Shown piece after piece: positions 48,059 to 63,425 of a stretch of DNA of 64,000 nucleotides. Below the pieces are notes generated by a model, which was given only the letters and a program-made list of their open reading frames with translations, had not been told where the DNA came from and did no database searches. The stretch spans positions 66,642-130,641 of the forward strand of contig JAERTI010000043.1 of the NCBI GenBank assembly GCA_016844925.1, given 5' to 3'. Source of the DNA: Candidatus Uhrbacteria bacterium (GTDB lineage: Bacteria > Patescibacteriota > Patescibacteriia > UBA9934 > GWF2-40-263). The translations under genes were made by a program, and so were the position numbers. The first letter of the stretch is position 1; every line of letters starts with the position of its first letter.

Positions 48059-48073
48059 AAACCCTGCAACCAT

Positions 48074-50203: not shown

Positions 50204-50244
50204 GTTCGGGCTCCCAATGGAGCGTTCGATAAGATCGAATGTTC
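50204..50244 (+). repeat. attC-like repeat, C-type variant with compensatory R-box change (CCCAAT / ATTGAGG)
   Basis: C to T in R'' matched by G to A in R'. Confidence 0.5.
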
Positions 50245-50320
50245 CATTGAGGGAAACCTCTTGCACGACAGCTGACGGCTTGCCGTCATAACCATAAGCA
50301 GTCCCTCCCTGGAGTAACAC

Positions 50321-50575
50321 ATGTGGACTGACTGGTTTGAGAACGAGCACGTTGACGCTCTGCTGCAGAGCGCCGCATCGAACTTCCACCTGGTGCAGGT
50401 GGAGATGGTGGACGGAACGATCCACGAGGGTGAAGTCAGCCTCAACGGCGGCATCGAGATCGTCCGTGAGGGTGAGGGAACGACGGAGCTCGACAGCGAG
50501 CAGATCGCCCGCATGCGCCTGACGACCTGGCGCGAGGTCCCGCCCGAGGACCCGTTCAAGGTCGACTGGGACTGA
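50321..50575 (+). CDS. hypothetical acidic protein (84 aa)
   Basis: ORF within cassette. Confidence 0.45.
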   Translation: MWTDWFENEHVDALLQSAASNFHLVQVEMVDGTIHEGEVSLNGGIEIVREGEGTTELDSEQIARMRLTTWREVPPEDPFKVDWD

Positions 50576-50663
50576 GTCCCACCGCACACCCGCCCAGGCA
50601 CACACGACCTGGCGGGTACGACCGAGCTCAGCTCGGCACGCCTCAAGTGAGACGCACTTGAGG

Positions 50664-50705
50664 ACCGAACGTAGAGGTTGAGCCTGCTCGACCCTTACGT
50701 TGGGA
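50664..50705 (+). repeat. attC-like repeat, D-type (ACCGAAC gtagag GTTGAG cctg CTCGAC ccttac GTTGGGA)
   Basis: preceded by H1, CCGAGCTcAGCTCGG and cctcaagtg/cacttgagg hairpins. Confidence 0.5.
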
Positions 50706-50733
50706 AACTTGAAACAGCTAAAGGGGAAAACCC

Positions 50734-51279
50734 ATGAGTGACATGGATACGAGAGTGGGGACGGAGTGCCTCGTGCAGATCGAAGAGATCGACGAGCAGA
50801 TTGAGCGGCTGCAGCAGCGACAGAAGGAGCTGATGGAGCAGGCTCGCGTCTCCACGGCCGTGGCCTACGTGGCCATTCTGGACGTGCAGACCCAGGCCGT
50901 AGACATCTTCCCGGTGTCGTCGGACGACCGGCTCAACGCGTACGGGAACCAGTGCGACTGCGACTTGATGCTCAACACGTGCTACTGCGACGAGAAGTGG
51001 ACGTCGGTCCGCAACTTCTCGTTCGAGGTCATGCTCGACGACCGTCCGTCCTGGCAGAGGCGCCACTCGCCTCGCAAGGATGGTGTCCAGCTCGCCTTCG
51101 AGTACTGGTGCGACAAGCGCGACTACTTCAAGACCTCCACGAGGGGTCTGCCGTACGGTGAGGAGTGTGAGCAGGTGGACTGGGAACGACCTCGCCGCAA
51201 GATGCTGCTGTACGCCACCAGGACCGAAGAAGAGGCTCGCACCTGGGCCGCGTCCAAGACGCAGCAGGCCGCTGGCTAG
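50734..51279 (+). CDS. Cys-rich hypothetical protein (181 aa; CDCD...CYCDEKW)
   Basis: ORF within cassette. Confidence 0.5.
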   Translation: MSDMDTRVGTECLVQIEEIDEQIERLQQRQKELMEQARVSTAVAYVAILDVQTQAVDIFPVSSDDRLNAYGNQCDCDLMLNTCYCDEKWTSVRNFSFEVMLDDRPSWQRRHSPRKDGVQLAFEYWCDKRDYFKTSTRGLPYGEECEQVDWERPRRKMLLYATRTEEEARTWAASKTQQAAG

Positions 51280-51325
51280 AGTCAGAACAACGGCTCGACC
51301 GAGGAGTACGTCCTTGTGTCGGGCT

Positions 51326-51367
51326 CCTCAACGTAGAGCTCGAGCTGACTCGAGACCTGCGTTGGGG
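51326..51367 (+). repeat. attC-like repeat, A-type
   Basis: CCTCAAC...CTCGAGctgaCTCGAG...GTTGGGG. Confidence 0.6.
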
Positions 51368-51438
51368 AGTGCGATGGATGCCCGTAGGGCAACGCACAAC
51401 CTGTACCCGTCCTGGAGAGTCCGGGAAGGAGAGCCAAC

Positions 51439-51654
51439 ATGGCTTGGAAGATTGTGAGTGTGGTGCTGGGCGTGAGTGCGTTCGTGCTCGGTTGCGTCTG
51501 GTTTGTTCTGCTGTGCATCATGACCTTTGGTGTGCTCACCCCTGAGGGGAGCATCGACCAGGTGCTGGACGGCATCTGCTGGACGCTCGCTTGCGGAGCC
51601 ATTGGCATTCCGCTGGCGACGCTGTCGTTGAAGGCTTGGGAGCGCGGAGCGTAG
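51439..51654 (+). CDS. small membrane protein (71 aa)
   Basis: AAGGAG RBS, two TM helices. Confidence 0.45.
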   Translation: MAWKIVSVVLGVSAFVLGCVWFVLLCIMTFGVLTPEGSIDQVLDGICWTLACGAIGIPLATLSLKAWERGA

Positions 51655-51736
51655 CTCCAACACACAAACTCCTGTCAAAGGAGTACGGCCGATACTTATC
51701 GGCACGGCGGGCATAAGAGACATCACGTCTCGCCCG

Positions 51737-51790
51737 TCGCCACTGACTTGGTTTCGATGCAGTAAGATCGAGATCAGATCAGTGGTGTGA
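51737..51790 (+). repeat. possible highly diverged attC-like repeat (CCACTGA ... TCGAT gcagtaag ATCGA ... TCAGTGG)
   Basis: architecture conserved, R-boxes unrelated. Confidence 0.3.
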
Positions 51791-51919
51791 AAACCACTTC
51801 GCAGGATGTTCGTGGGGATTGGTCGACCACGGACGCGAAATTTCTAATCCGAAAGGTACTCTAAGCAGGCTTGCTCGGCTTGCTGCGACCAAAGAGTTGA
51901 GTTCTACAAGTGAGGACTC

Positions 51920-52651
51920 ATGAGCAAGATGGAAGAGATCCGCCAGACGGTGGCGGACAACATGCATCGCGTGGCCAAGCTCGGCCAGTGGCCCAGCCAC
52001 ATCAACGCCGAGAAGAGCCTGCTGAGCCGCATTCCCGAGCCGGGCAAGGAAGCCCCTGGGTTCGACGCCGGCATCGCCTGCGCGCTGGGCCTGATCCCGC
52101 GCGACAAGCAGCAGCTGGCGGCGCAGCTGCACGCCAACTACACCCCCAAGGCGGTGAAGCTGGTGCGGCGCCAGTCCGTTCAGATGCACGAGGACGCCCC
52201 CACCACCTGGTGGCTCGCCGCGTGCTGGCTCTGCGACGAGGCCGGTGTGAGTCAGCGAGACTTCCTGCGCCAGGTGAGTGCGTTCAAGCGCCTCGCTGCG
52301 GATCCGCAGACCAGGCGCAAGGTCGCCCGGGAGGAGCTGGAGCGCAAGAAGAAGCTCTTCGTCGTTCTGGACGGCATCGCCTACGGCGCTCAGGATGGTG
52401 CTGCGCAGGGAGCGTACATCGCTGGGGTGGACCTCGCGGTGGTGTGGATGGAGAAGTACGGTATCTACTTCGTCAGCACCTACCACGAGAGCCTCGGCCT
52501 GGAGGACTTCGTCTGGTCCGACCGTGTCGACGACCAGGGGCGGCTCATGAGCGGCCCGATCCACGGCTCGCGCCAGTTCGTGAAGACCGGCTCCCAGGAG
52601 GAGCTCGGCAAGATGCTGGAGATCGCCAAGGCCCACCTGGCCATCGGCTAG
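51920..52651 (+). CDS. hypothetical protein, paralog family X (PGFDAGIACAL, TWWLAA, SLGLEDF.WSD)
   Basis: about 45% identical to 53453..54202. Confidence 0.6.
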   Translation: MSKMEEIRQTVADNMHRVAKLGQWPSHINAEKSLLSRIPEPGKEAPGFDAGIACALGLIPRDKQQLAAQLHANYTPKAVKLVRRQSVQMHEDAPTTWWLAACWLCDEAGVSQRDFLRQVSAFKRLAADPQTRRKVAREELERKKKLFVVLDGIAYGAQDGAAQGAYIAGVDLAVVWMEKYGIYFVSTYHESLGLEDFVWSDRVDDQGRLMSGPIHGSRQFVKTGSQEELGKMLEIAKAHLAIG

Positions 52652-52737
52652 ATCTCGTCGAGCTCAGCTCGACAAACGACCCTGTTAGGCACGGACGACC
52701 TGACAGGAGCACTCCCAAGTCATCACGCGACTTGGGG

Positions 52738-52847
52738 ACTCAACGGAGAGGTTGATACGAATATTCCTCGAGCAACGTCGAGAGGCTGTATATGCAGCAC
52801 TTCGACAGGCTCAGTGAATATTCGCGTGATTGACACCTGCGTTGGGG
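52738..52847 (+). repeat. attC-like repeat, long B-type variant (110 bp) with nested 10-bp stem ACGAATATTC/GAATATTCGT
   Basis: ACTCAAC...GTTGAT...TTGAC acctgc GTTGGGG. Confidence 0.5.
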
Positions 52848-52897
52848 AAACTGCTTTTCCCACGGTCCGGTTCACGCCGGAAAAGGCAATAGCTGAA

Positions 52898-53239
52898 ATG
52901 TTTGAGTCCGAGGTCCTTAACGGGCTTGCGGTGGTTCTAGTCTACGTTCTGCCGTTTGGATGCGCGTTCCTTATCGCCTACAAAGGAGAGTGGTTCGAGA
53001 GGGTGCGTGCGTTCAGTTCATGGTTCGAGATGGCGATCGGAGACGAGAGTCTCGATGGTTCTCGAAAGAGGCGTGGTGACAGGTACCTGTACCTGGCCAA
53101 CGCGATACTCATCGGCATCTGCACCGGCATGCTCGTGACAACTGGTACACGTGAGTTCAGTGCCTCCGCAACGATCAATCTGGTGGTGTGTCTACTTTGG
53201 GGGGTCTTCCAGATTTACCTCCTGAGGAAGCGACGGTAA
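52898..53239 (+). CDS. membrane protein (113 aa)
   Basis: three hydrophobic helices. Confidence 0.45.
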   Translation: MFESEVLNGLAVVLVYVLPFGCAFLIAYKGEWFERVRAFSSWFEMAIGDESLDGSRKRRGDRYLYLANAILIGICTGMLVTTGTREFSASATINLVVCLLWGVFQIYLLRKRR

Positions 53240-53329
53240 GCACACGGGCCGACTGACGTCGCTCTCGGTTTGCAAGATGACCGAGGGTAGACGATGCCTG
53301 GCGCGAGGAGAACGTCCTTGTGTCGGGCT

Positions 53330-53400
53330 CCTCAACACAGAGGTTGATGAACCACGTAAAACCCTTCGGGTCACGTGGCAGGTCGACACCTGCGTTGGGG
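53330..53400 (+). repeat. attC-like repeat, B-type
   Basis: followed by palindrome ACCTGCCGGCAGGCAGG. Confidence 0.6.
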
Positions 53401-53452
53401 ACTTACCTGCCGGCAGGCAGGAACCCATCTTTCAACTTCAAGGAGGGGTCAC

Positions 53453-54202
53453 ATGACCTTCGACATCAGGGGTGCCGCAGAGGCACTGGAGACCGTGCGT
53501 GACAACGTGGAGCGCGTGGCAGCGCTGGGTGAGTGGAGCGCGAACGAGCACGCCAAGGGGCGTCTGATCGGGCGCGTCCCGCAGGACAACGATGGTGAGG
53601 ACGAGGTACTGGCTCCCGGCTTCGACGCCGGCATCGCCTGCGCGCTGAGCATGATCCCCGAGGACAAGCAGCGGCTCAGCGCCGTCCTGCACGCGGCGTA
53701 CACGCCCGAGGCCATCGCGCAGCTGCGTGGTGAGCTCGAGAACATGACCCCCGGCACCGAGACCACCTGGTGGCTCGCTGCCAGCTCGCTGTGCGAGGAG
53801 GGGAACATCTCCGTGCTCAGCTTCATGGCCCAGGTGCGCCAGTTCGAGCAGCTGATGCTGGATCCGGCCAAGCGCCTGATGGCCGCCAAGGCCGAGTGGA
53901 ACAAGCTCAAGGGCAGCTTCCAGGACATGAACGGTGTCGCCTACACCACGGTGGATGGTGGCATGCAGGCTGGCTACATCGCTGGTCACAAGCTGGCGGT
54001 GGGATACGCCGAGAACTACGGCATCCACTTCGTGGGCACCTACCTGCCCAGCCTGGGCCTCGAGGACTTCGAGTGGTCCGACGTCTGTGACAAGCAGGGT
54101 CGCTCCACCAGCGGCCTGCTCGGACCGAACTTCGCCAAGGTCGGCGATCTGGTCGAGCTCGGTGAGGTCATCAAGATCGCCCGGGCCCACCTGAAGATCT
54201 AG
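53453..54202 (+). CDS. hypothetical protein, paralog family X
   Basis: AAGGAGG RBS. Confidence 0.6.
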   Translation: MTFDIRGAAEALETVRDNVERVAALGEWSANEHAKGRLIGRVPQDNDGEDEVLAPGFDAGIACALSMIPEDKQRLSAVLHAAYTPEAIAQLRGELENMTPGTETTWWLAASSLCEEGNISVLSFMAQVRQFEQLMLDPAKRLMAAKAEWNKLKGSFQDMNGVAYTTVDGGMQAGYIAGHKLAVGYAENYGIHFVGTYLPSLGLEDFEWSDVCDKQGRSTSGLLGPNFAKVGDLVELGEVIKIARAHLKI

Positions 54203-54209
54203 GAGACAG

Positions 54210-54371
54210 ATGAAAGAATGGATTCAGGGGCTGCTGAAAAAGTACTTCAGCCCCCCACCACCGCGACGTCCAACCGTCTACGTGGTGCACGGACCCGCTT
54301 ACCGCTCGCGCTGGAGCTGCCGGTGCGACGAGACGGAACCCGATTGGCAGGACAGCTGCTACTGCGGGTAA
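54210..54371 (+). CDS. small Cys-rich peptide (53 aa; C.C.ETEPDWQDSCYC)
   Basis: AGGAG RBS 4 nt upstream; not in ORF track (under 60 aa); C-terminus resembles 55849..56067. Confidence 0.4.
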   Translation: MKEWIQGLLKKYFSPPPPRRPTVYVVHGPAYRSRWSCRCDETEPDWQDSCYCG

Positions 54372-54414
54372 GAGTCTGACGGCTCGACCGAGGAGAACGT
54401 CCTCGTGTCGGGCT

Positions 54415-54456
54415 CCTCAACGGAGTTCTCGATTTCGGTCGAGACCTGTGTTGGGG
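54415..54456 (+). repeat. attC-like repeat, A/C hybrid (CCTCAAC ggagtt CTCGAT ttcg GTCGAG acctgt GTTGGGG)
   Basis: mixed L-boxes. Confidence 0.55.
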
Positions 54457-54540
54457 AATATCCTGAGTAGGATTGACCTAAATCGTCGCAGATTGGTGTT
54501 GCCTGCAATGCCGATGCTGCACTTCACAGGAGAAGGACAC

Positions 54541-54930
54541 ATGCTGAGGGAACGGCTCGAACAAGGTCGAGGGATCCCTGCCAAGACCGACCACAACAGG
54601 GTTCGGCAGGTGAAGGATGCGCTGGTTCAGGAGCTCGGTGAGCATCTGGGGCGTGAGTACCGATGGCTGGCGGCCTGCACGGTTGCGGTCGAGGGCGGCC
54701 GGTGGGGTGGCGAGCGCCGCCGCAAGCGACGTCTCAAGCTCGCCGCGATGATCGGCGAATGCTACGCTCACCTGGGTGAGCCCAACCCGTTGGCGGAGCT
54801 GCCCAAGGACTGGGAGATGACTGGGCTGTACTACGGCTACGGTGCCATGCAGCGCTACCAGGAGGATCGCGGTGGCAGCATCGAGGGACTCGTCATGATC
54901 GGGCTGCTGGACAGCGGCAAGCTCGGCTAG
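54541..54930 (+). CDS. hypothetical protein (129 aa)
   Basis: AGGAGAAGGA RBS. Confidence 0.45.
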   Translation: MLRERLEQGRGIPAKTDHNRVRQVKDALVQELGEHLGREYRWLAACTVAVEGGRWGGERRRKRRLKLAAMIGECYAHLGEPNPLAELPKDWEMTGLYYGYGAMQRYQEDRGGSIEGLVMIGLLDSGKLG

Positions 54931-55038
54931 CTCCACCTCTGGAGCACACGACCCCGTCAGGCACGGACGACCTGACGGGCGCCCACGTAAAGACCTTCGG
55001 TCCACGTGGCACGCCCCAAGTCACTACGCGACTTGGGG

Positions 55039-55080
55039 ACTGAACGTAGAGCTCGATTGTGATCGAGACCTGCGTTGGGG
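55039..55080 (+). repeat. attC-like repeat, A-type
   Basis: preceded by perfect H1 hairpin CCCGTCAGG/CCTGACGGG and UUCG hairpin. Confidence 0.6.
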
Positions 55081-55163
55081 ACCTGTCCACCGACAGGGGG
55101 GAAACCCAATCGAAACAACGGGCGTCGGCCCGTAAGTCCAGCAGCGCTGGAAGAAAGGAAGAC

Positions 55164-55481
55164 GTGCTTGTTGATGTAATGATCTACTTGGCATGTTGGT
55201 TGGTCGGAGCGGTGTCTGGTCAGCTGATCAGGTTTCTTCCCAAGAGAGATCGGTTTGGCATGAGGCAGGTGGGTTTGATGGCCTTCATTGGTCTGGGCTG
55301 CATGTTGTCTTTGAACGTGATGTTTCTCGATTTCGATGATGCCGCCAAGGTGGCTTCATGGTCGCGGGATGTCACTGGGACCTACGGAACCTTGTTCGGT
55401 TTTTACTTCGGGTCTCTTCACGTCTTCGAGGCGATGGTGAAGTCGAAGAATTCTTCCTCACAACAGGAAAGAAAGAGTTAA
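55164..55481 (+). CDS. small membrane protein
   Basis: start GTG 55164 or ATG 55179. Confidence 0.4.
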   Translation: MLVDVMIYLACWLVGAVSGQLIRFLPKRDRFGMRQVGLMAFIGLGCMLSLNVMFLDFDDAAKVASWSRDVTGTYGTLFGFYFGSLHVFEAMVKSKNSSSQQERKS

Positions 55482-55483
55482 AG

Positions 55484-55693
55484 ATGAAGAAGAATAAGAT
55501 GAGCGAGTGCCGCCAGTTGATTCTTGGCTTAGCCCTCGAATGGTTCTTGTTCCTTCTGGTTGCCATGGCGATTTTCTTCGCAATAAAGTCCAGTGTTTGC
55601 TCAGGTGCTGTTGCTGCTGAACGGTCGGCGATGGAAGGCTATTCGATCTTGAGAGAGGTTCTTTGCGAGGCTATACAGTCAAGCGACACGTAG
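55484..55693 (+). CDS. small membrane protein (69 aa)
   Basis: immediately follows previous ORF; AT-richer. Confidence 0.4.
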   Translation: MKKNKMSECRQLILGLALEWFLFLLVAMAIFFAIKSSVCSGAVAAERSAMEGYSILREVLCEAIQSSDT

Positions 55694-55800
55694 ACCACAT
55701 ATCCTCACACCTGTTACGTTCTTCTGGGCCGCGTGCGTTTCTATCGTACGAGCAGAAGAGGGCAGGGTGAGACGACCTCAAGCGCACGCAATGCTTGGGG

Positions 55801-55842
55801 ACTGAACGGAGAGCTCGATTTCGATCGAGACCTGCGTTGAGG
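55801..55842 (+). repeat. attC-like repeat, A-type; R' GTTGAGGTG doubles as SD for next ORF
   Basis: ATG 6 nt after GAGGTG. Confidence 0.55.
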
Positions 55843-55848
55843 TGAATC

Positions 55849-56067
55849 ATGGAGAACGAAGAAACCATCGAGACAGAAAGGACGGCCATGGACCGATTCA
55901 TTCAGGGGCTGCGGAGTTTCTTCCGCTGGGACCCCGAGTCTGAAAAGGTGCAAGAGATCGCGTTGGTCCCCACCGGACCCAAGCGGAAGCGTCCGCGTCA
56001 CCCCGAGACCGGCTGCTACTGCGAACCGGACCCTGAGTGGCAGGAGTACTGCCACTGCTGGCACTGA
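55849..56067 (+). CDS. small Cys-rich protein (72 aa; GCYCEPDPEWQEYCHCWH)
   Basis: C-terminal motif shared with 54210..54371. Confidence 0.45.
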   Translation: MENEETIETERTAMDRFIQGLRSFFRWDPESEKVQEIALVPTGPKRKRPRHPETGCYCEPDPEWQEYCHCWH

Positions 56068-56109
56068 GCCCTACGGCTCGACCCGAGGAGAACGTCCTCG
56101 CGTCGGGCT

Positions 56110-56151
56110 CCTCAACGGAGTTCTCGATTTCGATCGAAACCTGCGTTGAGG
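56110..56151 (+). repeat. attC-like repeat, A-type
   Basis: CCTCAAC ggagtt CTCGAT ttcg ATCGAA acctgc GTTGAGG. Confidence 0.6.
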
Positions 56152-56185
56152 TGAATCCATCACCTAAAGAAACAGGAGGCAAGGC

Positions 56186-56871: not shown

Positions 56872-57054
56872 ATGCACCCGAGACATCACGCAGACACCCA
56901 GTTCGAGGATGACATCCACGACAGGGGTGGCGAACCCTTCAACGCCATCGACGCGGCCGCGGCTGCAGAGATGGAGCGTCAGCTCGAGGTAGAAGCTGCC
57001 CACGCCGAAGCGCTCGAAGAAGAGCGCTGGCTGTGGTCCGTCGACTACTGCTAG
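56872..57054 (+). CDS. small acidic protein (60 aa)
   Basis: AGGAAG RBS. Confidence 0.35.
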   Translation: MHPRHHADTQFEDDIHDRGGEPFNAIDAAAAAEMERQLEVEAAHAEALEEERWLWSVDYC

Positions 57055-57125
57055 GCTGAGGCGAGGCACGTCCTCACGTTGGAGGATGGTGTATAGAGAA
57101 GACGACTTAGCCCAAGGAGGTGCTC

Positions 57126-57260
57126 ATGCACCGAGATGAGTCACAACAGAAAGAGCGAGACGGCATCCACATGGCCACCATGTTCGGTCTTCTCGCGGCG
57201 AGCCTCGCTGTCTGGGGACTGGTGTTCTACGGAGCTTGGCTGCTGCTGGCCTGAGTCGGC
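57126..57260 (+). CDS. small membrane peptide (44 aa)
   Basis: AAGGAGG RBS; hydrophobic C-terminus; not in ORF track. Confidence 0.3.
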
Positions 57261-57451
57261 TGACAGCACACGCTGGCGAGCGCAAACGCAACGGCCGTGC
57301 GCGATTCCTGGTTACGATGACCAGTTGAGTCGCGACACGGCAACCCATCTGACTTCTGGATCTGGATTGAGAAGTCAGATGGGGAAACCCAACACCTGAT
57401 TCACGGGCCAGCGGGCCCACTGACCCCGGTCGCCGGGGAGAAAGGGAGACG

Positions 57452-57658
57452 ATGCTTAAAGGCATCATCACGTTCGTGCTCTCATGGTTCGATGTTGATA
57501 CCGATCGCCCGATGATCACATTCTTCGCGATCATTGTCTTGGCGATTGTGGGCGGGTTTAGCGTTGACTCGCTCAAGGGAGAGGTTGAGGAGCTGAAGCT
57601 GGCCGTGTGTCAGTGTCAGTGCGAGCAAGGCAAAGCGCTTTGTGGAAAGGGTGAGTGA
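57452..57658 (+). CDS. small membrane protein with CQCQCEQ tail
   Basis: first of 4 overlapping small membrane ORFs. Confidence 0.4.
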   Translation: MLKGIITFVLSWFDVDTDRPMITFFAIIVLAIVGGFSVDSLKGEVEELKLAVCQCQCEQGKALCGKGE

Positions 57659-57659
57659 T

Positions 57660-57833
57660 ATGTGGAAAACTGATGAGCGGTTTTACACCAAGTGCACCTT
57701 CATGGTTTCCGTATTGCTCCTATGCGCGCCGTTGTTCTTCGGCACGTGGGAACAGATCAAGACACTCTCTACAGAGCGAGATGCTCTAGAGGTCCAGCTC
57801 TACGAGCTTGGCTGTGCGCAGGAGAAGAAATGA
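57660..57833 (+). CDS. small membrane protein
   Basis: start overlaps preceding stop. Confidence 0.35.
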   Translation: MWKTDERFYTKCTFMVSVLLLCAPLFFGTWEQIKTLSTERDALEVQLYELGCAQEKK

Positions 57834-58120
57834 AACTCAAGATTAAGATGCTACTTTCACTGGCGGTCGTCTACGCCATGTACATGACGGTCATTCAGCT
57901 CGCATGGATGCACTTCATCGGATCGCTTTGGCGAGTTGTGGTGATCTTGGTGGCTTTTGTCATCGGTTGCATCTTTCACGGAATCATCTTGAAGGCTAGC
58001 GGCGAGGTAATCGATTCGTCAGATTCGGTCCTTGTTGGACAGCTTGCATCTGTGGCTCACGCGAGTCTGTACGCGCTGGTGATGTTCGGCATTCCGTTGA
58101 CCATCGCGCAGTTGTTCTAA
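57830..58120 (+). CDS. small membrane protein (96 aa)
   Basis: ATGA start/stop overlap. Confidence 0.4.
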   Translation: MKLKIKMLLSLAVVYAMYMTVIQLAWMHFIGSLWRVVVILVAFVIGCIFHGIILKASGEVIDSSDSVLVGQLASVAHASLYALVMFGIPLTIAQLF

Positions 58121-58130
58121 GGAGATTGAG

Positions 58131-58412
58131 ATGAACGAAGTTCTCAAGGTCTGGCTCTACGCACTTGTGAGCGCACTGTTGATCAACGGCGTGGCTCTCG
58201 GGTTCTCTGTTTTCAAGCTGGCTGATCCCATGATGTGGCAAGCAGCAGGCATGCTTGCAAGCGCGGCATCAGTCGCCGCCTTGGTTCCTACCATCAAGCG
58301 CTTCAAATTCTTGATGGACTACGTGTCTAACACGACATACTTCCAGGTGCTCGGTGTGAGCGCCTATCTCTGGATCATCTTCCCCCTGCAGTGGTGGGAG
58401 TGGATTCAGTAA
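58131..58412 (+). CDS. small membrane protein (93 aa)
   Basis: AAGGAG RBS, three TM helices. Confidence 0.45.
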   Translation: MNEVLKVWLYALVSALLINGVALGFSVFKLADPMMWQAAGMLASAASVAALVPTIKRFKFLMDYVSNTTYFQVLGVSAYLWIIFPLQWWEWIQ

Positions 58413-58644
58413 GGCTCTGACGAGCTAAACCCGTAGCAGGTTCGGAATCAGGATCGTGGTTGTAAAGACCAGTTCTGATTCATCTGAGGCGGGAAACGGT
58501 TTACGCGACCCAAGTTGACGCAGACTTGGGGCTACCTACATGTACTTAAACCTTGAGTGCAGCTAGGTGGTCTTGATCTCAGAAGTTTGAGGCGGTAGGG
58601 TCTTAAACTCCTGGGATGAATGAATCATCCTGGTAGGAGGGTGT

Positions 58645-59127
58645 GTGCCAGGACGGATCTACACGCAGAAAGAGGTGCGCGAGAAGCAAGAAAAACTTCT
58701 CGAGCTCTATCAGGAGGCAAAGCGCATTGCCCTGCAGGTGGCAGAGGCCGCCTTCGAGGAAACCGGTGCGAAAGAGACGCTTTTGCGTCAGTATGATGAT
58801 CTGCAGCTTGAGATCGAGTTCTCAGGCGGTGATCAGATCGGCTGGATGGTGTGCACCGGCAGTGGGCACAATCTCATCTTTGCCAAGCTGTTCCAGTTTG
58901 AGTGCTACTTCTCCGAGAAGAGAGAGGGAAGGCCTCACATCTTTGTCCGGTGGAGCGGTGAAGGGTTCATGGTGGTCGTGGACGACTGCCCCGCGGTGCA
59001 CGTGGACTACGGCGTGGACATCCTTTACGGCGAGTACACGATTCGCATCTTCCGCAACACGGAAGAGATCGACGAGTGGTCAAAGACCAAGCAGGCTGAG
59101 CACATCGCTCGCACACGCGTCGAGTAA
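58645..59127 (+). CDS. hypothetical protein (160 aa)
   Basis: GGAGGG RBS followed by GTG. Confidence 0.5.
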   Translation: MPGRIYTQKEVREKQEKLLELYQEAKRIALQVAEAAFEETGAKETLLRQYDDLQLEIEFSGGDQIGWMVCTGSGHNLIFAKLFQFECYFSEKREGRPHIFVRWSGEGFMVVVDDCPAVHVDYGVDILYGEYTIRIFRNTEEIDEWSKTKQAEHIARTRVE

Positions 59128-59221
59128 TTCGACGAGTCTGCCACGCAGACCAACACCGGCAGGGTGAAGCCGGTACGCTATGACAAGCAGAACACCCGGA
59201 CGCTTGTCACTACTGACCCGC

Positions 59222-59262
59222 GCTCGATAAGTTCGAGAGCGGATCGGTGGATGTTCTATCTG
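59222..59262 (+). repeat. G-type hairpin repeat (ACTGACCCGCGCTCGA n4 TCGAGAGCGGATCGGTGG)
   Basis: 16-bp imperfect stem, variable 4-nt loop; four copies. Confidence 0.55.
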
Positions 59263-59352
59263 CACCAAACACCCGTGATCTGCATGCTCGGGGGTAATGA
59301 TGCCCCTTGAGACAAGCAGCACCGGCCCTTCTGCTGAGAGGCAGGAGCGACA

Positions 59353-59949
59353 ATGGGACGTGAGCAGGAAATTGATGAGCGACTGACGCGCCTAGAGATC
59401 GAGACGCACCTGGATACGTTGTACGCTTACAGAGAGAGACTCAGGGTGAAGATGGATGATCTCCAATGGCACTATGAGCGAATTCCATTCATGCAGTCTG
59501 AGGAGCTTTTTAGGAAGCAGGTTCATGCTGCTGGTCTGGAGATTGCGCATGTGCAGCGGCAGCTTGATGCTAGTGATGAGATGATCAGGAGCTTCAAGCG
59601 ACAGGTCGCCAGTCACAGGGCTGCCCAAGGGCTGGTCGTCGTTCAGGATGTTGATGATGGTGGACTGAGTCTGGTACAGGGAACAAAGTTTCCGACTCCA
59701 AGAACGGTATCTCATCACTGGTTCGTGCGATTGCTGCTGGCAGCCAAGATCCTTGAAGTGGATCACGGTGCGGCCGCAGAGCAGGCCTCTCAGGGGCTTG
59801 AGGTGGTCGACTCCGTTGACCGCGGCGGACTGACCGTCTCGTCCGGGGGAGGGCAGCTCGCCCTTACTGATAACAAGACCACGGAGCCACTCCTTCAGGA
59901 ACCTACACGTTCCTGGTGGCGAAGGTTCACGTCATGGCTGACGTCATGA
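59353..59949 (+). CDS. hypothetical protein (198 aa)
   Basis: AGGAG RBS. Confidence 0.5.
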   Translation: MGREQEIDERLTRLEIETHLDTLYAYRERLRVKMDDLQWHYERIPFMQSEELFRKQVHAAGLEIAHVQRQLDASDEMIRSFKRQVASHRAAQGLVVVQDVDDGGLSLVQGTKFPTPRTVSHHWFVRLLLAAKILEVDHGAAAEQASQGLEVVDSVDRGGLTVSSGGGQLALTDNKTTEPLLQEPTRSWWRRFTSWLTS

Positions 59950-59992
59950 CAAGTAAACATTACGACGGGTGGACAATCGTGTTCACCCGGCT

Positions 59993-60031
59993 ACTGACCC
60001 GCGCTCGACAAGTTCGAGAGCGGATCGGTGG
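59993..60031 (+). repeat. G-type hairpin repeat
   Basis: loop caag. Confidence 0.55.
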
Positions 60032-60085
60032 ACGTGAGTTCACTGGAACACTGTCTCGGCAAGGCCGAGAGAAAGGACTGACGCG

Positions 60086-60601
60086 ATGCGTTGGTTGATC
60101 ATGGTGGTTGTCTTGAACCTGTTGCCAGGCACCGTCCTGGCTGGCGAGTTCATGCACAGTCCACCGCACCTGCAAAAGGTGCAGAGGGCCATGCGAGTGG
60201 TCCATGGTGATGGGTACGTGCCGAGGGAAATCAAGCTGGAACGCTTCGAGTGTTACCAGAATGCGTTTCTCTCTTTTGTGGACGTGCTAGACGCACAAGT
60301 GGAGGCGGCAGAGACGGGGCTGGTTCAGCTCAGTTTCACCGTCGATTTTCTGCGTTGTGCTCAAGTGCATGTTCCTGGAGAAGTCGGCATCTTCATGCCC
60401 GCATGGGAGACGGCCGTCAACATCGCTCTACAGCGAGAGGCCAAGCAGGCACTGAGGCGTCTGCGTAGGGATTACACCCAGCAGGATCGCAAGAAGCTCA
60501 TGAGGCTGCTGCGACTCAGGGGCATCACGCTTCTGGAGATCGGTACGCATCCTGAGGAGCTGCGCAAGTTGCGTCGTTCGACCACGAAGATGCAGAAGTA
60601 A
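60086..60601 (+). CDS. secreted protein (171 aa)
   Basis: signal peptide. Confidence 0.5.
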   Translation: MRWLIMVVVLNLLPGTVLAGEFMHSPPHLQKVQRAMRVVHGDGYVPREIKLERFECYQNAFLSFVDVLDAQVEAAETGLVQLSFTVDFLRCAQVHVPGEVGIFMPAWETAVNIALQREAKQALRRLRRDYTQQDRKKLMRLLRLRGITLLEIGTHPEELRKLRRSTTKMQK

Positions 60602-60628
60602 GTCTGCTTTTCTGAAAGGGTGATAGAG

Positions 60629-60955
60629 ATGAATGACGAGTTTGATCAGTTGCCCCTTCCGTTGATTCGCGTGCTCGCGGAACTTCCAGGGGTGGAGCCA
60701 CCCAATGATCCGTGCTGGATCCAGCTTGATGATGAGGATCTTCAATGGTTCCTCCGTGGGTTGCAAGAAAGGCCCAAGCTCCTCAAGGGAGTGCAGGTGG
60801 AATTGAGCGTTGAGGTTACCGATTTGGGTGATCTGACCAGACGGAGCCTCGTTGAGATGCTCTGCGAAAGATCGGACGAGATCCTTGGATTGAAGGTCAG
60901 GGTCTTTTCCACGCACGAGCAGCTGGGAACGCTGCTCTACGGCCTGAGGCAGTAA
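60629..60955 (+). CDS. hypothetical acidic protein
   Basis: second ORF in the same cassette. Confidence 0.45.
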   Translation: MNDEFDQLPLPLIRVLAELPGVEPPNDPCWIQLDDEDLQWFLRGLQERPKLLKGVQVELSVEVTDLGDLTRRSLVEMLCERSDEILGLKVRVFSTHEQLGTLLYGLRQ

Positions 60956-60974
60956 ACGCTCAGGCAATACCCAC

Positions 60975-61132
60975 AAGCGTTCATGTTCCTTGGTTGACCA
61001 GCTCGGTCAGAGGCAAGGAGGAACAGCGATTGTGGGAGACGGTGAGATACCGTCAACGAGCCCAAGTCATACGGACTTGGGACTACTGACCCGCGCTCGA
61101 GAGATCGAGAGCGGATCGGTGGACACAACGTT
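60975..61132 (+). repeat. about 150-nt structured element ending in a G-type hairpin, copy 1
   Basis: about 85% identical to 61845..61998 with compensatory changes. Confidence 0.55.
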
Positions 61133-61174
61133 CATCGGAATCTCATCTCCGCATCGTGGAGAGAAGGGAAAGAG

Positions 61175-61462
61175 GTGCGTAAGTACTTCGTCTACATTTT
61201 TTTGCTTGGAGCGGTCTTCAACATCTGTCTGATCATTGCCTCTCGGACGCTCACGTTCGAGATGCAGGGATTTTGGCTGGTGATGCTTGGTGGGGTTTTG
61301 TTCGGATTTGGTCTGGGTCTCATGTTGGCGCACCACGGTCGTCAGGTTGTCCAGTACGTGCGGATGTTGCCTTCAGAGCGCTCCATCATCTTCCAACTTC
61401 TGGCCTCCATCATGGTGATGTTCTCCATCTTGCCGGTAGTGCTTGTACTGCTGGTGGGTTAG
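61175..61462 (+). CDS. small membrane protein (95 aa)
   Basis: GTG start, three TM helices. Confidence 0.45.
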   Translation: MRKYFVYIFLLGAVFNICLIIASRTLTFEMQGFWLVMLGGVLFGFGLGLMLAHHGRQVVQYVRMLPSERSIIFQLLASIMVMFSILPVVLVLLVG

Positions 61463-61463
61463 G

Positions 61464-61826
61464 GTGCAGTCGCAGGCAGAGCCCCTGGGTTACCTGGGCA
61501 TCATCCGTCGGCTCAAGGGTGGGGCGTGGCGCTTCAAGGTCTACGAGGTCCTCGACAAGGAACAGGTGGAAACGCTCCCCGGCTTCAAGAAGAAGGTGAA
61601 TCCGCCCATACGCTTTTTCGGCGCGGGCGCACACCTGGAGTTCACTACGCGCGGGTGTACGCACATCATCGGGCACATGCAGGAATTCAGACTTGGCAAG
61701 AGTCTGAAGTTCATCTACTACTGCGCCGCGTTGCACGACAAGGATGTGGACCTCGAGTGGTACGCACGCCAGATGTGCAGCAATCTGATCATGAACGGGT
61801 TCGAGCTGACGCCTGAGTCAACGTGA
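61464..61826 (+). CDS. hypothetical protein (120 aa)
   Basis: GTG start overlapping previous stop. Confidence 0.4.
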   Translation: MQSQAEPLGYLGIIRRLKGGAWRFKVYEVLDKEQVETLPGFKKKVNPPIRFFGAGAHLEFTTRGCTHIIGHMQEFRLGKSLKFIYYCAALHDKDVDLEWYARQMCSNLIMNGFELTPEST

Positions 61827-61844
61827 TCAAGAGTGACAGCCCAC

Positions 61845-61998
61845 CTTCGTTTAGGTTCCTTTGTTGACCAGCTCGGTCAGAGGCAAAGAGGAACATCGGA
61901 TGTGGGAGACGGTGCAATACCGTCGACGACCTCAAGTCAAACGGACTTGAGGGCACTGACCCGCGCTCGAGTAGATCGAGAGCGGATCAGTGGTTAGC
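61845..61998 (+). repeat. about 150-nt structured element ending in a G-type hairpin, copy 2
   Basis: paralog of 60975..61132. Confidence 0.55.
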
Positions 61999-62111
61999 CA
62001 CTGTGAACTCCTCGTGCCCTTTGGGTATAGCTGGGAGGAAAGCCCAGTGAGAGGAATCTGTGCAGGCCGTGAGGTCGCATAGAGCGGGCGAGAGTCCGTG
62101 ATGAGTAGAAG

Positions 62112-62534
62112 ATGAGTGAAGTCTGGTGGGAAATCGCCGTAGTGTTGATGCTTGCCTTGTTGGGACTTGGCATGATGGAAATCCTGATCCTGGTCCTCGG
62201 GCGGATGACCATTCTGTGGTATAGGCGTCAGCCGTTCCACCTGGTCTGGCGCAAGGGCTGTGACTACGAGATCATCCCGCTGCGCGTCGGGCAGATCGTG
62301 GAGCTGGATACGGAGCTCTTCGCCGAAGCGCTCGCCGAGGGTTTCGTGCAAGTGACTCGTGGGGACCATGTCCCCATGATCGTTCGGGAGGGCTATGTGC
62401 ACTCCCGGCGTGTGGATGGCTGCAGCTTCAAGCTGTACGTCGGCTCCAAGTCCTACCAGCGCGCTGAATCGTTCGTCCGGCGCCGCAAGGTCGTCAACGG
62501 GCTCCGTGCCACGTTCGGGTACGATCCCAAGTAA
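62112..62534 (+). CDS. hypothetical protein with N-terminal TM (140 aa)
   Basis: ORF within cassette. Confidence 0.45.
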   Translation: MSEVWWEIAVVLMLALLGLGMMEILILVLGRMTILWYRRQPFHLVWRKGCDYEIIPLRVGQIVELDTELFAEALAEGFVQVTRGDHVPMIVREGYVHSRRVDGCSFKLYVGSKSYQRAESFVRRRKVVNGLRATFGYDPK

Positions 62535-62578
62535 GCAGGCGAGCTACGCGCTCACCGTGAGGATGCTCTCCTCCGGTG

Positions 62579-62645
62579 GGCTCCTCAACAGAGAGGTTGA
62601 CCACGTAAAGCCCTTTGGGCCACGTGGCAAGATCGACAGCTCTGT
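62579..62645 (+). repeat. attC-like repeat, B-type variant (internal gcccTTTGgggc hairpin)
   Basis: compensatory variant of the B-type internal hairpin. Confidence 0.55.
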
Positions 62646-62697
62646 TGGGGAACCATCCCTACAAACGTCCCGGCGTATCCGGGTAAAGGACACAGAG

Positions 62698-62859
62698 ATG
62701 GTAGAACAGGCATTTTTCGCAGGCGTGATCGCCGCGGGACTCGCTCTTCTTCTGGGAGCGCTGCTTCAGCGCTGGTTCAAGCACATCAAGAACAACGCGA
62801 CCCTGGAGACGACCAAGCCCTGGGCGGACGATGGAGGTGAAGATGGAGATGAGTCCTGA
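62698..62859 (+). CDS. small membrane protein (53 aa)
   Basis: cccggc..ccggg-TAAAGGA leader. Confidence 0.4.
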   Translation: MVEQAFFAGVIAAGLALLLGALLQRWFKHIKNNATLETTKPWADDGGEDGDES

Positions 62860-63286
62860 GGCAACGATCTACCTCACTGGAGTGGGCGTCGTAGCAGTAC
62901 TGGCTCTCGGCTTGTACGTGTACTTCCTGATCCGTTCCTCGCAGAAGCTGTGGATCCTCCACACCATGCGGGTGAATAAGGGTCCCGTCTACGCGTTCGC
63001 GTCGGCGGTCTCCTGGGGCGTTCCCTACACCTGGGTTCATGCACAAGACCAGCCTTCGTCATCGTCGCTGTTTGTGAAGCAGGTGAGCAAGACAACTCTG
63101 TGTGCTTCACTCTCGGTTGGTGAGGAGTATCACAAGACCGAGATTGGTCTGGAGCTTGATCAGGAGATGTCGTTCAGCTACAAGACTGGGGTCATGATCC
63201 AGGAAATCCACGTGTTTCCGGATGAGCAGGACGTCCTTCGGTTTTGTCGAGATCACGAGATCCACCTGGCTTCGGTCTTCGACTAG
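62849..63286 (+). CDS. membrane-anchored protein, paralog family Y
   Basis: GGAGGTG RBS; paralog of 63471..63914. Confidence 0.5.
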   Translation: MSPEATIYLTGVGVVAVLALGLYVYFLIRSSQKLWILHTMRVNKGPVYAFASAVSWGVPYTWVHAQDQPSSSSLFVKQVSKTTLCASLSVGEEYHKTEIGLELDQEMSFSYKTGVMIQEIHVFPDEQDVLRFCRDHEIHLASVFD

Positions 63287-63384
63287 TGAACCTACGTCCA
63301 TGGCGGCGGCCTAACGAACACGCAACGAGAGCTGTCCTTGTGACTCCTGGTGACGACAACCGGTAGAGACACAGGACGGCTTCC

Positions 63385-63425
63385 TCTCTGGCTTCTCGAG
63401 TTCGCTCGAGGGGCAGGAGAGGGAA
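63385..63425 (+). repeat. diverged A-type attC-like repeat (CCTCTC ... CTCGAGttcgCTCGAG ... GAGAGG)
   Basis: R-boxes changed but still complementary. Confidence 0.4.

What the first reader, a model, noticed from the sequence alone, without database searches (positions are those of the whole stretch)
50204..63425. Diverged repeats that keep complementarity of the core boxes
Several repeats change the R-boxes yet keep them mutually complementary. Examples are CCCAAT/ATTGAGG at 50204-50244, CCTCTC/GAGAGG around CTCGAGttcgCTCGAG at 63385-63425, and CCACTGA/TCAGTGG at 51737-51790.

This is evidence that the folded single-stranded structure, not the primary sequence, is under selection, as expected for attC-like recombination sites.
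Basis: seen in the sequence. Interest (0 to 1): 0.5.

Follow-up and report, generated by a model that had tools for sequence, protein, structure and literature searches.

The report
Structured hairpin repeats between cassette genes
A long run of small unknown genes in a candidate-phylum (Uhrbacteria-like) bacterium has a conserved two-tier hairpin at almost every gene junction; its pairing is kept by compensating mutations, but on the mRNA-sense strand and without the hallmarks of integron attC sites, so it looks like a new integron-like or RNA-processing gene array.

Summary
All three named repeats are strong hairpins (z -5.1, -4.4, -6.2; 0/200 shuffles). They share one register with about 40 copies from the window and four related metagenomic loci. 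In that alignment 88.7% of cells pair against 81.8±0.9 shuffled, and 11 of 19 pairs carry double-sided changes (0/500 shuffles).

The attC reading fails as membership. There are no extrahelical bases. The internal loop is at most 2x2 rather than a 5-6 nt unpaired spacer. Most copies span 38-46 nt. The diverged copies lack AAC/GTT. No integrase lies in the window or at the fully visible locus of a relative.

Folding is favoured on the gene-sense strand: G.T 67 versus A.C 19. Whole intergenic regions give z -5.1 sense versus -2.9 antisense. C(UUCG)G occurs 5 times versus 0 for its complement.

The array (41.5 to beyond 64 kb, at least 45 small ORFs, one strong promoter) sits between rpsP-rlmN and an smc-like gene in Candidatus Uhrbacteria relatives, and its size there ranges from about 1 to at least 45 units.

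Best reading (0.45): intercistronic RNA hairpin modules that also act as portable homology for gene swapping. Main rival (0.27): a non-canonical, sense-strand recombination site.

The parts
41256..41284 (+). Strong sigma-70-type promoter (TTGACA-17-TATTGT, with TG) at the head of the array
   Evidence: It is the only 10/12 match on the + strand in 41-61 kb. It is conserved in L006, L011, L012 and L014.
41290..41445 (+). Conserved leader RNA of about 150 nt, ending in an intrinsic terminator (GGCCGGTTG..CAATCGGCC + T6). It could be an attenuator or a small RNA.
   Evidence: The terminator stem carries compensatory changes across 4 loci, and the TTCTCTGGGGAGAGA hairpin is conserved.
41512..64000 (+). 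Array of at least 45 co-oriented small ORFs (42-275 aa). It has high GC3, no Pfam or PHROG families, and runs off the end of the window.
42523..42757 (+). Conserved multi-branch structured RNA candidate of about 235 nt, inside the promoter-proximal part of the array
   Evidence: 88 predicted pairs, 18 of them compensatory, across 4 species. No Rfam hit.
41838..41885 (+). Divergent junction hairpin (CTCCAAATGAGTTTCTCAG..CTGTGAGACTCCGAGGAG)
   Evidence: Homologues are L009 6729-6775, and L011 and L012.
43189..43231 (+). Junction hairpin of the ACCAG type (inner stem TCACGAT/ATCGTGA)
   Evidence: (D16)
43673..43717 (+). Junction hairpin of the ACCAG type, second copy
44178..44237 (+). C-type junction hairpin with an inserted terminal stem
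44582..44622 (+). C-type junction hairpin. Its left arm matches L009 copy A and its centre and right arm match L009 copy B.
45133..45174 (+). A-type hairpin (CCTCAACGTAGAG-CTCGAG-loop-CTTGAG-ACCTGCGTTGAGG)
   Evidence: 68.1 bits
45707..45756 (+). Diverged A-type hairpin (TTCACAGCATAGTGGTTGA..TCGACCCCTGCGCTGGGGAA)
   Evidence: (E 5.5e-6)
46412..46453 (+). A-type hairpin
   Evidence: 68.8 bits
46800..46841 (+). A-type hairpin
   Evidence: 73.8 bits
47383..47420 (+). A-type hairpin with a shortened outer stem
47987..48059 (+). Long A-type hairpin carrying an inserted terminal hairpin CCACGTAAAACCC-TTCG-GGGTCACGTGG
   Evidence: (D8)
48725..48798 (+). Long A-type hairpin (CAACACAG/CTGCGTTG variant)
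49299..49340 (+). A-type hairpin
   Evidence: 70.5 bits
49629..49669 (+). Diverged A-type hairpin, fully paired (GGAGTT/AGTTCC with two G.T pairs)
   Evidence: (E 2.8e-8)
50212..50252 (+). The outer box changes from CAAC/GTTG to CAAT/ATTG, and the 16-bp stem holds three G.T pairs.
   Evidence: E 2e-3; z -5.08
50664..50705 (+). A-type hairpin variant (GGTTGAG..CTCGACC)
   Evidence: 56.7 bits
51326..51367 (+). A-type hairpin
   Evidence: 68.2 bits
51740..51785 (+).
   Evidence: z -6.19. Relatives are L012 2870-2830 and 465-420.
52738..52847 (+). Long A-type hairpin with a large inserted terminal structure
53328..53400 (+). Long A-type hairpin
   Evidence: (D8)
54415..54456 (+). A-type hairpin
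   Evidence: 61.2 bits
55039..55080 (+). A-type hairpin
   Evidence: 68.5 bits
55801..55842 (+). A-type hairpin. The GAGG of its right arm lies 7 nt before the ATG at 55849.
56110..56151 (+). A-type hairpin
   Evidence: 62.4 bits
56785..56830 (+). A-type hairpin with a longer inner stem and a GCGA loop
   Evidence: 54 bits
57344..57383 (+). Diverged hairpin CCCATCTGACTTCT..AGAAGTCAGATGGG
   Evidence: (E 2.5e-3)
59210..59250 (+). C-type hairpin CTACTGACCCGCG-CTCGA..TCGAG-AGCGGATCGGTGG
   Evidence: (D12)
59991..60031 (+). C-type hairpin
   Evidence: (D12)
61083..61122 (+). C-type hairpin
   Evidence: (D19)
61954..61992 (+). C-type hairpin CACTGA..TCAGTG
62581..62650 (+). Long A-type hairpin (CAACAGAG/CTCTGTTG variant)
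63383..63422 (+).
   Evidence: z -4.44

Best explanation
The repeats are the last and most conserved module of a mosaic of stem-loops that fills almost every gap between the small genes of one long, co-oriented array.

**Proposed mechanism**
- The array is probably transcribed from a single strong promoter at 41256-41284 as a polycistronic RNA (inferred, not shown).
- The modules fold in that sense-strand RNA.
- The two-tier hairpin has an outer stem of 8-11 bp, a 2x2 internal loop or none, a 6-bp inner stem built on TCGA, and a tetraloop or an inserted hairpin. At 17-20 bp it has the size and shape of a double-strand-RNA processing or stabilising element.
- It most likely segments or insulates the transcript into separately stable, separately translatable units (inferred).
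- A sequence-reading factor is implied, because the primary sequence is also conserved across species.
- The same modules flank every ORF, so they also supply portable homology. Recombination through that homology lets ORFs be lost, duplicated, swapped and gained, giving integron-like variation without an adjacent integrase (variation shown; mechanism inferred).
For: **Sense-strand preference**
- In nearly all of 45 copies the sense fold is more stable than its reverse complement, for example -30.9 against -19.0 kcal/mol. The three reader examples differ by 6-11 kcal/mol.
- Non-Watson-Crick cells in stem columns are G.T 67 against A.C 19 (p = 2e-7).
- For 31 whole intergenic regions the mean z is -5.06 on the sense strand and -2.87 on the antisense strand (Wilcoxon p = 2e-7). 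The sense strand is the more stable one in 24 of 31.

**RNA-type loops**
- CTTCGG occurs 5 times and its complement CCGAAG 0 times.
- UNCG, GNRA or CUUG make up 15 of 45 predicted tetraloops on the sense strand, against 1 of 49 on the antisense strand.

**Other hairpin families**
At least one further hairpin family (CCCGTCAGG..CCTGGCGGG and its three other copies) covaries and carries T.G wobbles only; the other module families seen pair perfectly or nearly so. Selection therefore acts on the whole transcript-sense gap, not on one site.

**One transcription unit**
There is a single strong promoter. Inside the array there is no excess of promoter-like sites (6 against 5.0±2.1) or of intrinsic terminators (16 against 14.3±4.5).

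**Mosaic exchange**
- Breakpoints lie inside the hairpin.
- Others lie right after it (D14 and D15).
- One lies at a start codon: the 5'UTR at w51320-51432 is 81% identical to L012 2170-2057, and on my reading of both sequences the ORFs after the ATG are unrelated.

**No recombinase nearby**
None is found beside the array in the window, or in L006/L008 and L014 where both flanks are visible.
Against: - No expression data exist. Polycistronic transcription and RNA folding are inferred from sequence alone.
- G.T wobbles are also tolerated in single-stranded DNA, and the fold remains significant with DNA parameters.
- A generic RNA stabiliser would not need the primary-sequence conservation seen across genera, for example CCTCAACGTAGAG..TCGAG..CCTGYGTTGAGG in loci whose RlmN is only 72-83% identical.
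- It would also not obviously be confined to one hypervariable locus.
- The array's GC content (55-65%) is foreign to hosts of 46-48% GC. That points to a shared mobile gene pool, as seen with integrons.
Confidence: 0.45

Rival explanations
1. The hairpin is a non-canonical, structure-specific DNA recombination site. It folds from the sense (top) strand when that strand is single-stranded, and an unlinked, unidentified recombinase uses it to excise, insert and shuffle cassettes. That would make it a functional analogue of attC in a candidate-phylum bacterium, without being a member of the attC family.
For: - The architecture is that of a cassette array, and array size between smc and rpsP ranges from about 1 to at least 45 units among relatives.
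- Whole-cassette presence/absence and replacement are bounded by the hairpins, for example the extra unit L009 5489-5112 and the w49295-49668 unit relocated in L009.
- The last element of the array next to smc is a hairpin: L006 7435-7483 and L014 7901-7947.
- Primary sequence and structure are conserved across species, and two subfamilies coexist.
- An ORF-less unit sits between two hairpins in L012.
- The array's GC content is independent of the host's.
- The hairpin is confined to this locus within about 41 kb of window flank and the other loci examined.
Against: - No candidate enzyme has been found.
- Exchange points are not at one fixed position.
- Promoter-proximal units are the conserved ones and distal units vary, which is the opposite of insertion at an attI-like site.
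- All hairpin modules in the gaps, not only this one, show sense-strand structural selection and RNA-type tetraloops.
Confidence: 0.27
2. The hairpins are genuine integron attC sites forming a CALIN (a cluster of attC sites lacking an integrase), recombined by an IntI encoded elsewhere in the genome.
For: - The canonical copies read CCTCAAC...GTTGAGG, close to RYYYAAC/GTTRRRY.
- The layout follows R box, spacer, L box, variable terminal structure, and some copies carry long inserted terminal hairpins.
- The ORFs are co-oriented and promoterless, downstream of one promoter.
- CALINs are common (PMC4889954).
Against: - There are no extrahelical bases.
- The spacer is paired or only 2x2.
- Most copies span 38-46 nt, against 57-141 bp for attC.
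- Diverged copies lack AAC/GTT.
- The sense strand is favoured, not the bottom strand.
- The informative junctions are not at G|TT.
- No intI or intI remnant was found.
Confidence: 0.05
3. The hairpins are selfish or neutral palindromic repeats of the REP, BIME or MITE kind that spread locally, or double-stranded DNA palindromes bound by a dimeric protein.
For: - The intergenic regions are a mosaic of several hairpin modules, reminiscent of BIMEs.
- A GTAG motif sits next to the palindrome.
- The core is palindromic (CTCGAG).
Against: - The elements are not dispersed. Strong matches occur only inside the array in the window and the relatives' loci.
- All copies share one orientation.
- There are no target duplications or terminal repeats.
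- Strand-asymmetric G.T pairing and compensatory change would not be expected for a duplex protein site, because changing both half-sites together would require a changed protein.
Confidence: 0.1

Closest known systems
Integron attC sites, and CALIN or sedentary chromosomal integron arrays
   Same: - Both are imperfect hairpins with outer (R-like) and inner (L-like) paired boxes and a variable terminal structure.
- The outer boxes of the canonical copies resemble RYYYAAC/GTTRRRY.
- One site follows each small promoterless ORF.
- There is a single upstream promoter.
- Cassette content differs between relatives.
- Structure is kept by compensatory change.
   Different: - There are no extrahelical bases and no 5-6 nt unpaired central spacer.
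- Most copies are shorter than any known attC.
- The AAC/GTT triplet is lost in diverged copies.
- The sense strand is favoured instead of the bottom strand.
- Exchange points fall in the 5' half or centre of the hairpin, or elsewhere.
- There is no IntI.
- Promoter-proximal units are the conserved ones.
- The host is a Patescibacteria (Uhrbacteria-like) organism.
REP/BIME intergenic palindromes of enterobacterial operons
   Same: - Both are mosaics of imperfect palindromes in transcribed gaps between co-transcribed genes.
- Both show strand-specific G.T/G.U pairs.
- REP/BIME elements are thought to stabilise upstream mRNA, and they provide homology for rearrangements (from my own knowledge).
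   Different: REP/BIME elements are dispersed genome-wide, often in alternating orientation. The elements here are confined to one locus, all share one orientation, and the family is different.
RNase III processing hairpins between phage T7 genes, and RNase III-cleaved Correia/NEMIS hairpins in Neisseria transcripts
   Same: Both are stems of about 20 bp, interrupted by a small internal loop, placed between cistrons of a long transcript (from my own knowledge of these systems).
   Different: No cleavage has been shown here. The primary sequence is conserved far more than RNase III requires. The elements delimit swappable genes.

Membership tests
integron attC | Imperfect hairpin with paired R and L boxes and a variable terminal structure | tested here: met
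   Every copy shows a two-tier fold. The terminal loop is 3-8 nt, or an inserted hairpin of 30-80 nt.
integron attC | Conserved 5'-AAC-3'/5'-GTT-3' triplets in the R box, where strand exchange occurs (PMC5027507) | tested here: not met
   28 of 37 aligned copies carry AAC/GTT. The copies this finding concerns carry AAT/ATT (50212-50252), TGA/TCA (51740-51785) and CTC/GAG (63383-63422).
integron attC | Two or three extrahelical bases on one arm near L'' | tested here: not met
   All 37 copies pair in an ungapped, symmetric register with no bulged bases.
integron attC | Unpaired central spacer of 5-6 nt on each arm between the R and L boxes | tested here: not met
   At most a 2x2 loop (AG/AC). 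The rest of the spacer pairs (CGTAG/CTGCG and compensated variants). It is fully paired in 49629-49669, 50212-50252, L009 4545-4592 and L007 617-665.
integron attC | Length 57-141 bp | tested here: not met
   Short copies measure 38-46 nt from box to box. Only the five long copies reach 70-110 nt.
integron attC | The recombinogenic fold is that of the bottom strand, antisense to the cassette ORFs | tested here: not met
   The sense strand is more stable. G.T 67 against A.C 19. This test addresses thermodynamic preference only, not enzyme choice.
integron attC | Cassette boundary at G|TT of the 3' R box | tested here: inconclusive
   Two informative junctions place the exchange in the left arm or centre. 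Other homology breaks fall just after the hairpin or at a start codon. The number of events is small.
integron attC | An integron integrase (IntI) adjacent to the array or elsewhere in the genome | tested here: not met
   Pfam scans of the sizeable ORFs of the window and L006, and the precomputed Pfam hits on the called genes of L012 and L014, found none. tblastn with IntI1, recalled from memory, gave nothing better than E = 7.6 against the window, L001, L004-L009 and L011-L013; L014 was not included. The rest of the genome could not be examined.
REP/BIME | Dispersed in many intergenic regions across the genome | tested here: not met
   Covariance-model hits with E<0.01 occur only at 44-64 kb of the window, and only inside the arrays of L006, L009, L012 and L014. 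Whole genomes were not available.
REP/BIME | Associated RAYT (REP-associated tyrosine transposase) | not testable with these tools
RNase III substrate | About two helical turns of dsRNA, optionally with an internal loop, located in a transcript | tested here: met
   Predicted stems of 17-24 bp. This is a prediction only.
RNase III substrate | Cleavage by RNase III | not testable with these tools
   This needs RNA-end mapping or an in vitro assay.
Rfam families | A match to any curated RNA family | tested here: not met
   Nothing at E<=0.1. The only match up to E<=1 in 41-64 kb is a chance-level gyrA RNA hit (20.4 bits against a gathering score of 45, E 0.82) on the - strand at 52604-52679.

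The most novel reading that the evidence does not exclude
Candidatus Uhrbacteria-like bacteria (Patescibacteria) carry, at a fixed site between rpsP-rlmN and an smc-like gene, a previously undescribed cassette-array system.

Its parts are:
- a conserved promoter and leader RNA;
- conserved structured RNAs;
- from 1 to at least 45 swappable units, some without an ORF, each delimited by a sense-strand two-tier hairpin.

Units would be mobilised by a dedicated factor that is not an integron integrase, acting on single-stranded DNA or through RNA.
Probability: 0.3. Interest if true: 0.85.

Novelty: new variant of a known kind. Interest (0 to 1): 0.62.

Why it matters
Integrons are the only well-understood system that stores and shuffles promoterless gene cassettes through a structure-specific site.

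This array has the same overall logic, but its hairpin fails the attC definition. It is selected on the opposite strand, has no integrase beside it, and sits in a candidate-phylum lineage with tiny genomes and an episymbiotic lifestyle.

- If the hairpins act in RNA, they are a clear natural example of a modular expression scaffold: conserved untranslated regions with interchangeable ORFs.
- If they act in DNA, they point to a second, independent cassette-recombination system.

Either way, the locus is a hotspot of gene novelty in Patescibacteria. It also holds at least two uncatalogued structured RNA candidates, plus a third in relatives.

Tried and rejected
- **Phage genome.** The all-plus-strand large ORFs at the left end first suggested a phage. 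This was rejected: there is no DNA match in the phage collection, and the genes are housekeeping ones (T4P/T2SS ATPase, thrA-asd-thrC, 16S rRNA, trmD, rpsP, rlmN). The array ORFs match no PHROG family.
- **Genome contigs pattern scan.** It returned only two chance matches inside a histidine-kinase gene of Acidimicrobiia MAGs. The viral-contig scan found nothing.
- **Exact-protein look-ups for array ORFs.** These failed or returned only short Logan contigs. The source contig (261,502 bp, NCBI) could not be fetched, so the region beyond 64 kb is unseen.
- **Generic two-tier hairpin scan.** It was too permissive to be informative.
- **CRISPR-like reading.** A leader followed by palindromic repeats suggested CRISPR, but the 'spacers' are 0.3-0.9 kb genes and no cas gene is present.
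- **Internal promoters or intrinsic terminators.** The hairpins are not these: there is no excess of either pattern and no T-tracts.
- **Known RNA families.** Rfam gave no match.
- **Literature.** Searches for integrons, attC or hairpin repeats in Uhrbacteria, Patescibacteria or the Candidate Phyla Radiation found no description.
- **GC-biased gene conversion.** I considered this as the cause of the array's high GC. It remains untested.

Full report
**1. What the window is**

The left 27 kb is ordinary chromosome at about 48% GC.
- It holds type IV pilus/T2SS genes, thrA-asd-thrC, tRNA-Ile/Phe, an unlinked 16S rRNA at 22031-23527 (-), pyrD and trmD.
- From 27 kb onward the GC content rises to 55-64%.
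- Minus-strand genes run to rlmN (39338-40372) and rpsP (40417-40953).
- The closest named RlmN homologues are from Candidatus Uhrbacteria, at 72-77% identity.
- The 16S is only about 74% identical to anything in the plasmid collection.
- I therefore infer that the organism is an Uhrbacteria-like member of the Patescibacteria.
- After an AT-rich gap come a strong promoter at 41256-41284 and an array of at least 45 co-oriented small ORFs. These have typical coding GC3, run off the window, and match no Pfam or PHROG family.

**2. The observation**

- Each folds far better than shuffles: z = -5.08, -4.44 and -6.19 as RNA, with 0/200 shuffles as good. They remain significant with DNA parameters.
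- They belong to a family present at nearly every gene junction from 41.8 to 63.4 kb.
- The canonical unit is CCTCAACGTAGAG-CTCGAG-NNNN-CTCGAG-ACCTGCGTTGAGG. A strict pattern matches it 12 times against 0.00 expected.
- A covariance model built from 11 canonical copies finds no hit with E<0.01 outside 44-64 kb. It recovers diverged copies, including example 1 at E = 2e-3.

**3. Relatives**

A metagenome pattern scan and look-ups around RlmN homologues gave arrays of the same hairpin in L005, L006/L008, L007, L009 and L012, plus a near-empty locus in L014.
- Synteny is conserved: rlmN-rpsP, then the conserved promoter and leader, then the array, then an smc-like gene.
- The array holds about 1 unit in L014, about 8 in L006, at least 10 in L009, at least 16 in L012, and at least 45 in the window.
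- Array GC is 55-65% whether the host flanks are 46-48% (window left part, L006, L009) or about 54% (L012).

**4. Structure is conserved by compensation**

37 copies fit one ungapped register.
- Columns -13, -10, -9 and -8 have no unpaired cell, even though -10, -9 and -8 switch among A-T, G-C, C-G and T-A.
- Examples of compensated variants are CGTAG/CTGCG, CACAG/CTGTG, CTGAG/CTCAG, CCGAG/CTCGG and CAGAG/CTCTG.
- Overall, 81.9% of cells are canonical against 67.9±1.0 in column shuffles, and 16 of 20 positions carry double-sided change (0/1000 shuffles).
- On a MAFFT alignment of 25 sense copies, the count of structure pairs gives 88.7% against 81.8±0.9, 11 of 19 pairs and 37 cells with double-sided change, and a covariation score of 0.293 against 0.169. 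No shuffle out of 500 reaches any measure, and slid controls give 27-44%.
- The 'diverged' copies are partly a second subfamily (CCACTGAC..ATCAGTGG) that is itself conserved in L009 and L012. The CAAT/ATTG variant recurs in L012.

**5. Which strand folds**

- The sense strand folds better in nearly all copies.
- Non-Watson-Crick cells are G.T 72 against A.C 35. Outside the conserved internal loop they are 67 against 19 (p = 2e-7).
- The same holds for whole intergenic regions: mean z is -5.06 on the sense strand and -2.87 on the antisense strand, each against its own dinucleotide shuffles (Wilcoxon p = 2e-7).
- Sense-strand loops are enriched in RNA-type stable tetraloops. CTTCGG occurs 5 times against 0 for CCGAAG. 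UNCG, GNRA or CUUG make up 15 of 45 predicted tetraloops on the sense strand against 1 of 49 on the antisense strand.
- At least one further hairpin family in the gaps also covaries and carries T.G wobbles only.
- A strand-biased C-to-T mutation pressure could mimic part of this. However, the AT skew of the array is not T-rich, and the z-scores are composition-controlled.

**6. Comparison with attC**

I used the definition in PMC5027507: a bottom-strand hairpin, exchange at a conserved AAC, extrahelical bases, a 5-6 nt unpaired central spacer, a variable terminal structure, and a length of 57-141 bp.
- The layout of outer box, inner box and variable terminal structure is met. So is the near-consensus CCTCAAC/GTTGAGG of the canonical copies.
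- Extrahelical bases, spacer, length, strand, and AAC in the diverged copies are all not met.
- No integrase is present. Pfam scans of the sizeable ORFs of the window and L006, and the precomputed Pfam hits on the called genes of L012 and L014, found none. tblastn with IntI1, recalled from memory, found nothing in the window or in L001, L004-L009 and L011-L013; L014 was not included.
- In L006/L008 and L014 both flanks of the locus are visible.

**7. Are the units mobile?**

Between the window and L009 (72-88% nucleotide identity in shared parts) there are whole-unit differences bounded by the hairpins.
- The clearest case is an extra unit, L009 5489-5112, flanked by two C-type hairpins. The single window hairpin at 44582-44622 equals the left arm of one copy plus the centre and right arm of the other. 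The exchange therefore lies between position -3 and the loop.
- At L009 4216-4263 the left arm follows the upstream homologue, and the centre and right arm resemble the hairpin that precedes the downstream homologue in the window.
- Other homology breaks fall just after the hairpin (D14 and D15).
- One falls at a start codon. The hairpin plus 5'UTR at w51320-51432 is 81% identical to L012 2170-2057, but on my reading of both sequences the ORFs after the ATG are unrelated.
- The promoter-proximal part (leader, first ORF, a structured RNA) is shared by the window, L009, L011 and L012, while distal units differ.
- This mosaic pattern fits recombination through shared modules better than insertion at a single attI-like point, but the number of events is small.

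**8. Interpretation**

- **Shown:** a conserved, compensated, sense-strand-biased hairpin family confined to a hypervariable gene array at a fixed locus in several related organisms.
- **Inferred:** the array is one transcription unit. There is one strong promoter and no excess of internal promoters or terminators. The hairpins would act in the RNA as processing, stability or insulation elements, while also serving as portable homology.
- **Main rival:** a non-canonical structure-specific DNA site used by an unknown enzyme. It is kept alive by the cross-species conservation of primary sequence, the locus confinement, the ORF-less unit bounded by hairpins in L012, and the host-independent GC content.
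- **Canonical attC/CALIN** is unlikely.
- **Dispersed REP-like repeats or duplex protein sites** do not fit the confinement, the single orientation or the strand asymmetry.

**9. Novelty**

Rfam has no match, and the literature searches found no description. I rate this a new variant of a known kind, either cassette arrays or intercistronic structured repeats. There is roughly a 30% chance that it is a distinct cassette system.

Noticed in passing
window 41256-41445: A conserved strong promoter (TTGACA-17-TATTGT) is followed by a leader of about 150 nt. The leader contains the TTCTCTGGGGAGAGA hairpin and ends in an intrinsic terminator before the first array ORF. The same arrangement occurs in L006, L011 and L012. 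It may be an attenuator, a riboswitch-like leader or a small RNA. L014 keeps the promoter but has a different downstream sequence.
   Followed up: partly
window 42523-42757: A non-coding stretch of about 235 nt is 82-86% identical to L009 and L012, more conserved than the neighbouring ORFs. It folds as a multi-branch structure closed by TTCTTTCCA..CCGGAAGAAGAA/TTCTTCTCCGG..TGGAA. Of 88 predicted pairs, 18 are compensatory across 4 species. There is no Rfam match.
   Followed up: partly
L012 3511-4244 (-) and L014 7948-8640 (-): A conserved non-coding stretch of about 650-700 nt includes long near-identical blocks such as CTAAAGGGTCGCGCCAAAGCATGGGAGCCA..AAGGTCTGGCAAACCAATTC. Of 148 predicted pairs, 46 are compensatory between the two sequences. 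In L012 it sits as an ORF-less unit between two hairpins. In L014 it is essentially the only content downstream of the conserved promoter. It has no Rfam hit and was not found in the window.
   Followed up: partly
window 27000-39300: A second high-GC block (58-64% GC, GC3 about 0.9) carries minus-strand genes. These include a GluR0-like ligand-gated channel, a 512-aa spermidine-synthase-domain protein, and DUF350 and DUF2617 proteins. It lies next to rlmN in a genome of about 48% GC and may be another foreign island.
   Followed up: no
window 36099-36201 (-): A SAM riboswitch (RF00162, 55.5 bits) lies upstream of a minus-strand gene inside the high-GC block.
   Followed up: no
window 22031-23527 (-): The 16S rRNA gene has no adjacent 23S (an unlinked rRNA operon). 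It is only about 74% identical to the best matches in the plasmid collection, which fits a deep-branching Patescibacteria lineage.
   Followed up: partly
window 16497-21843: A fused aspartokinase-homoserine dehydrogenase, asd and thrC are all present. A threonine pathway is unusual for a presumed Patescibacteria genome.
   Followed up: no
window 42778-44128; 62831-63914: Paralogous ORF families occur inside the array. There are three related ORFs at 42778-43134, 43164-43625 and 43751-44128 with repeated 5'UTRs. The last two ORFs share a C-terminal ..F(C)RD(N/H)..L motif. Local duplication therefore contributes to array growth.
   Followed up: partly
L014 7255-7942: In the relative with the near-empty locus, a MNT/HepT (nucleotidyltransferase/HEPN) toxin-antitoxin pair lies between smc and the single hairpin.
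   Followed up: no
window 55801-55849 and 45167-45186: In some units the GAGG of the hairpin's right arm lies 7 nt upstream of a plausible start codon (ATG 55849, GTG 45186). There the outer stem (CCUC/GAGG) could sequester a Shine-Dalgarno sequence. In most units the start codon is 25-90 nt further on and has its own SD.
   Followed up: no
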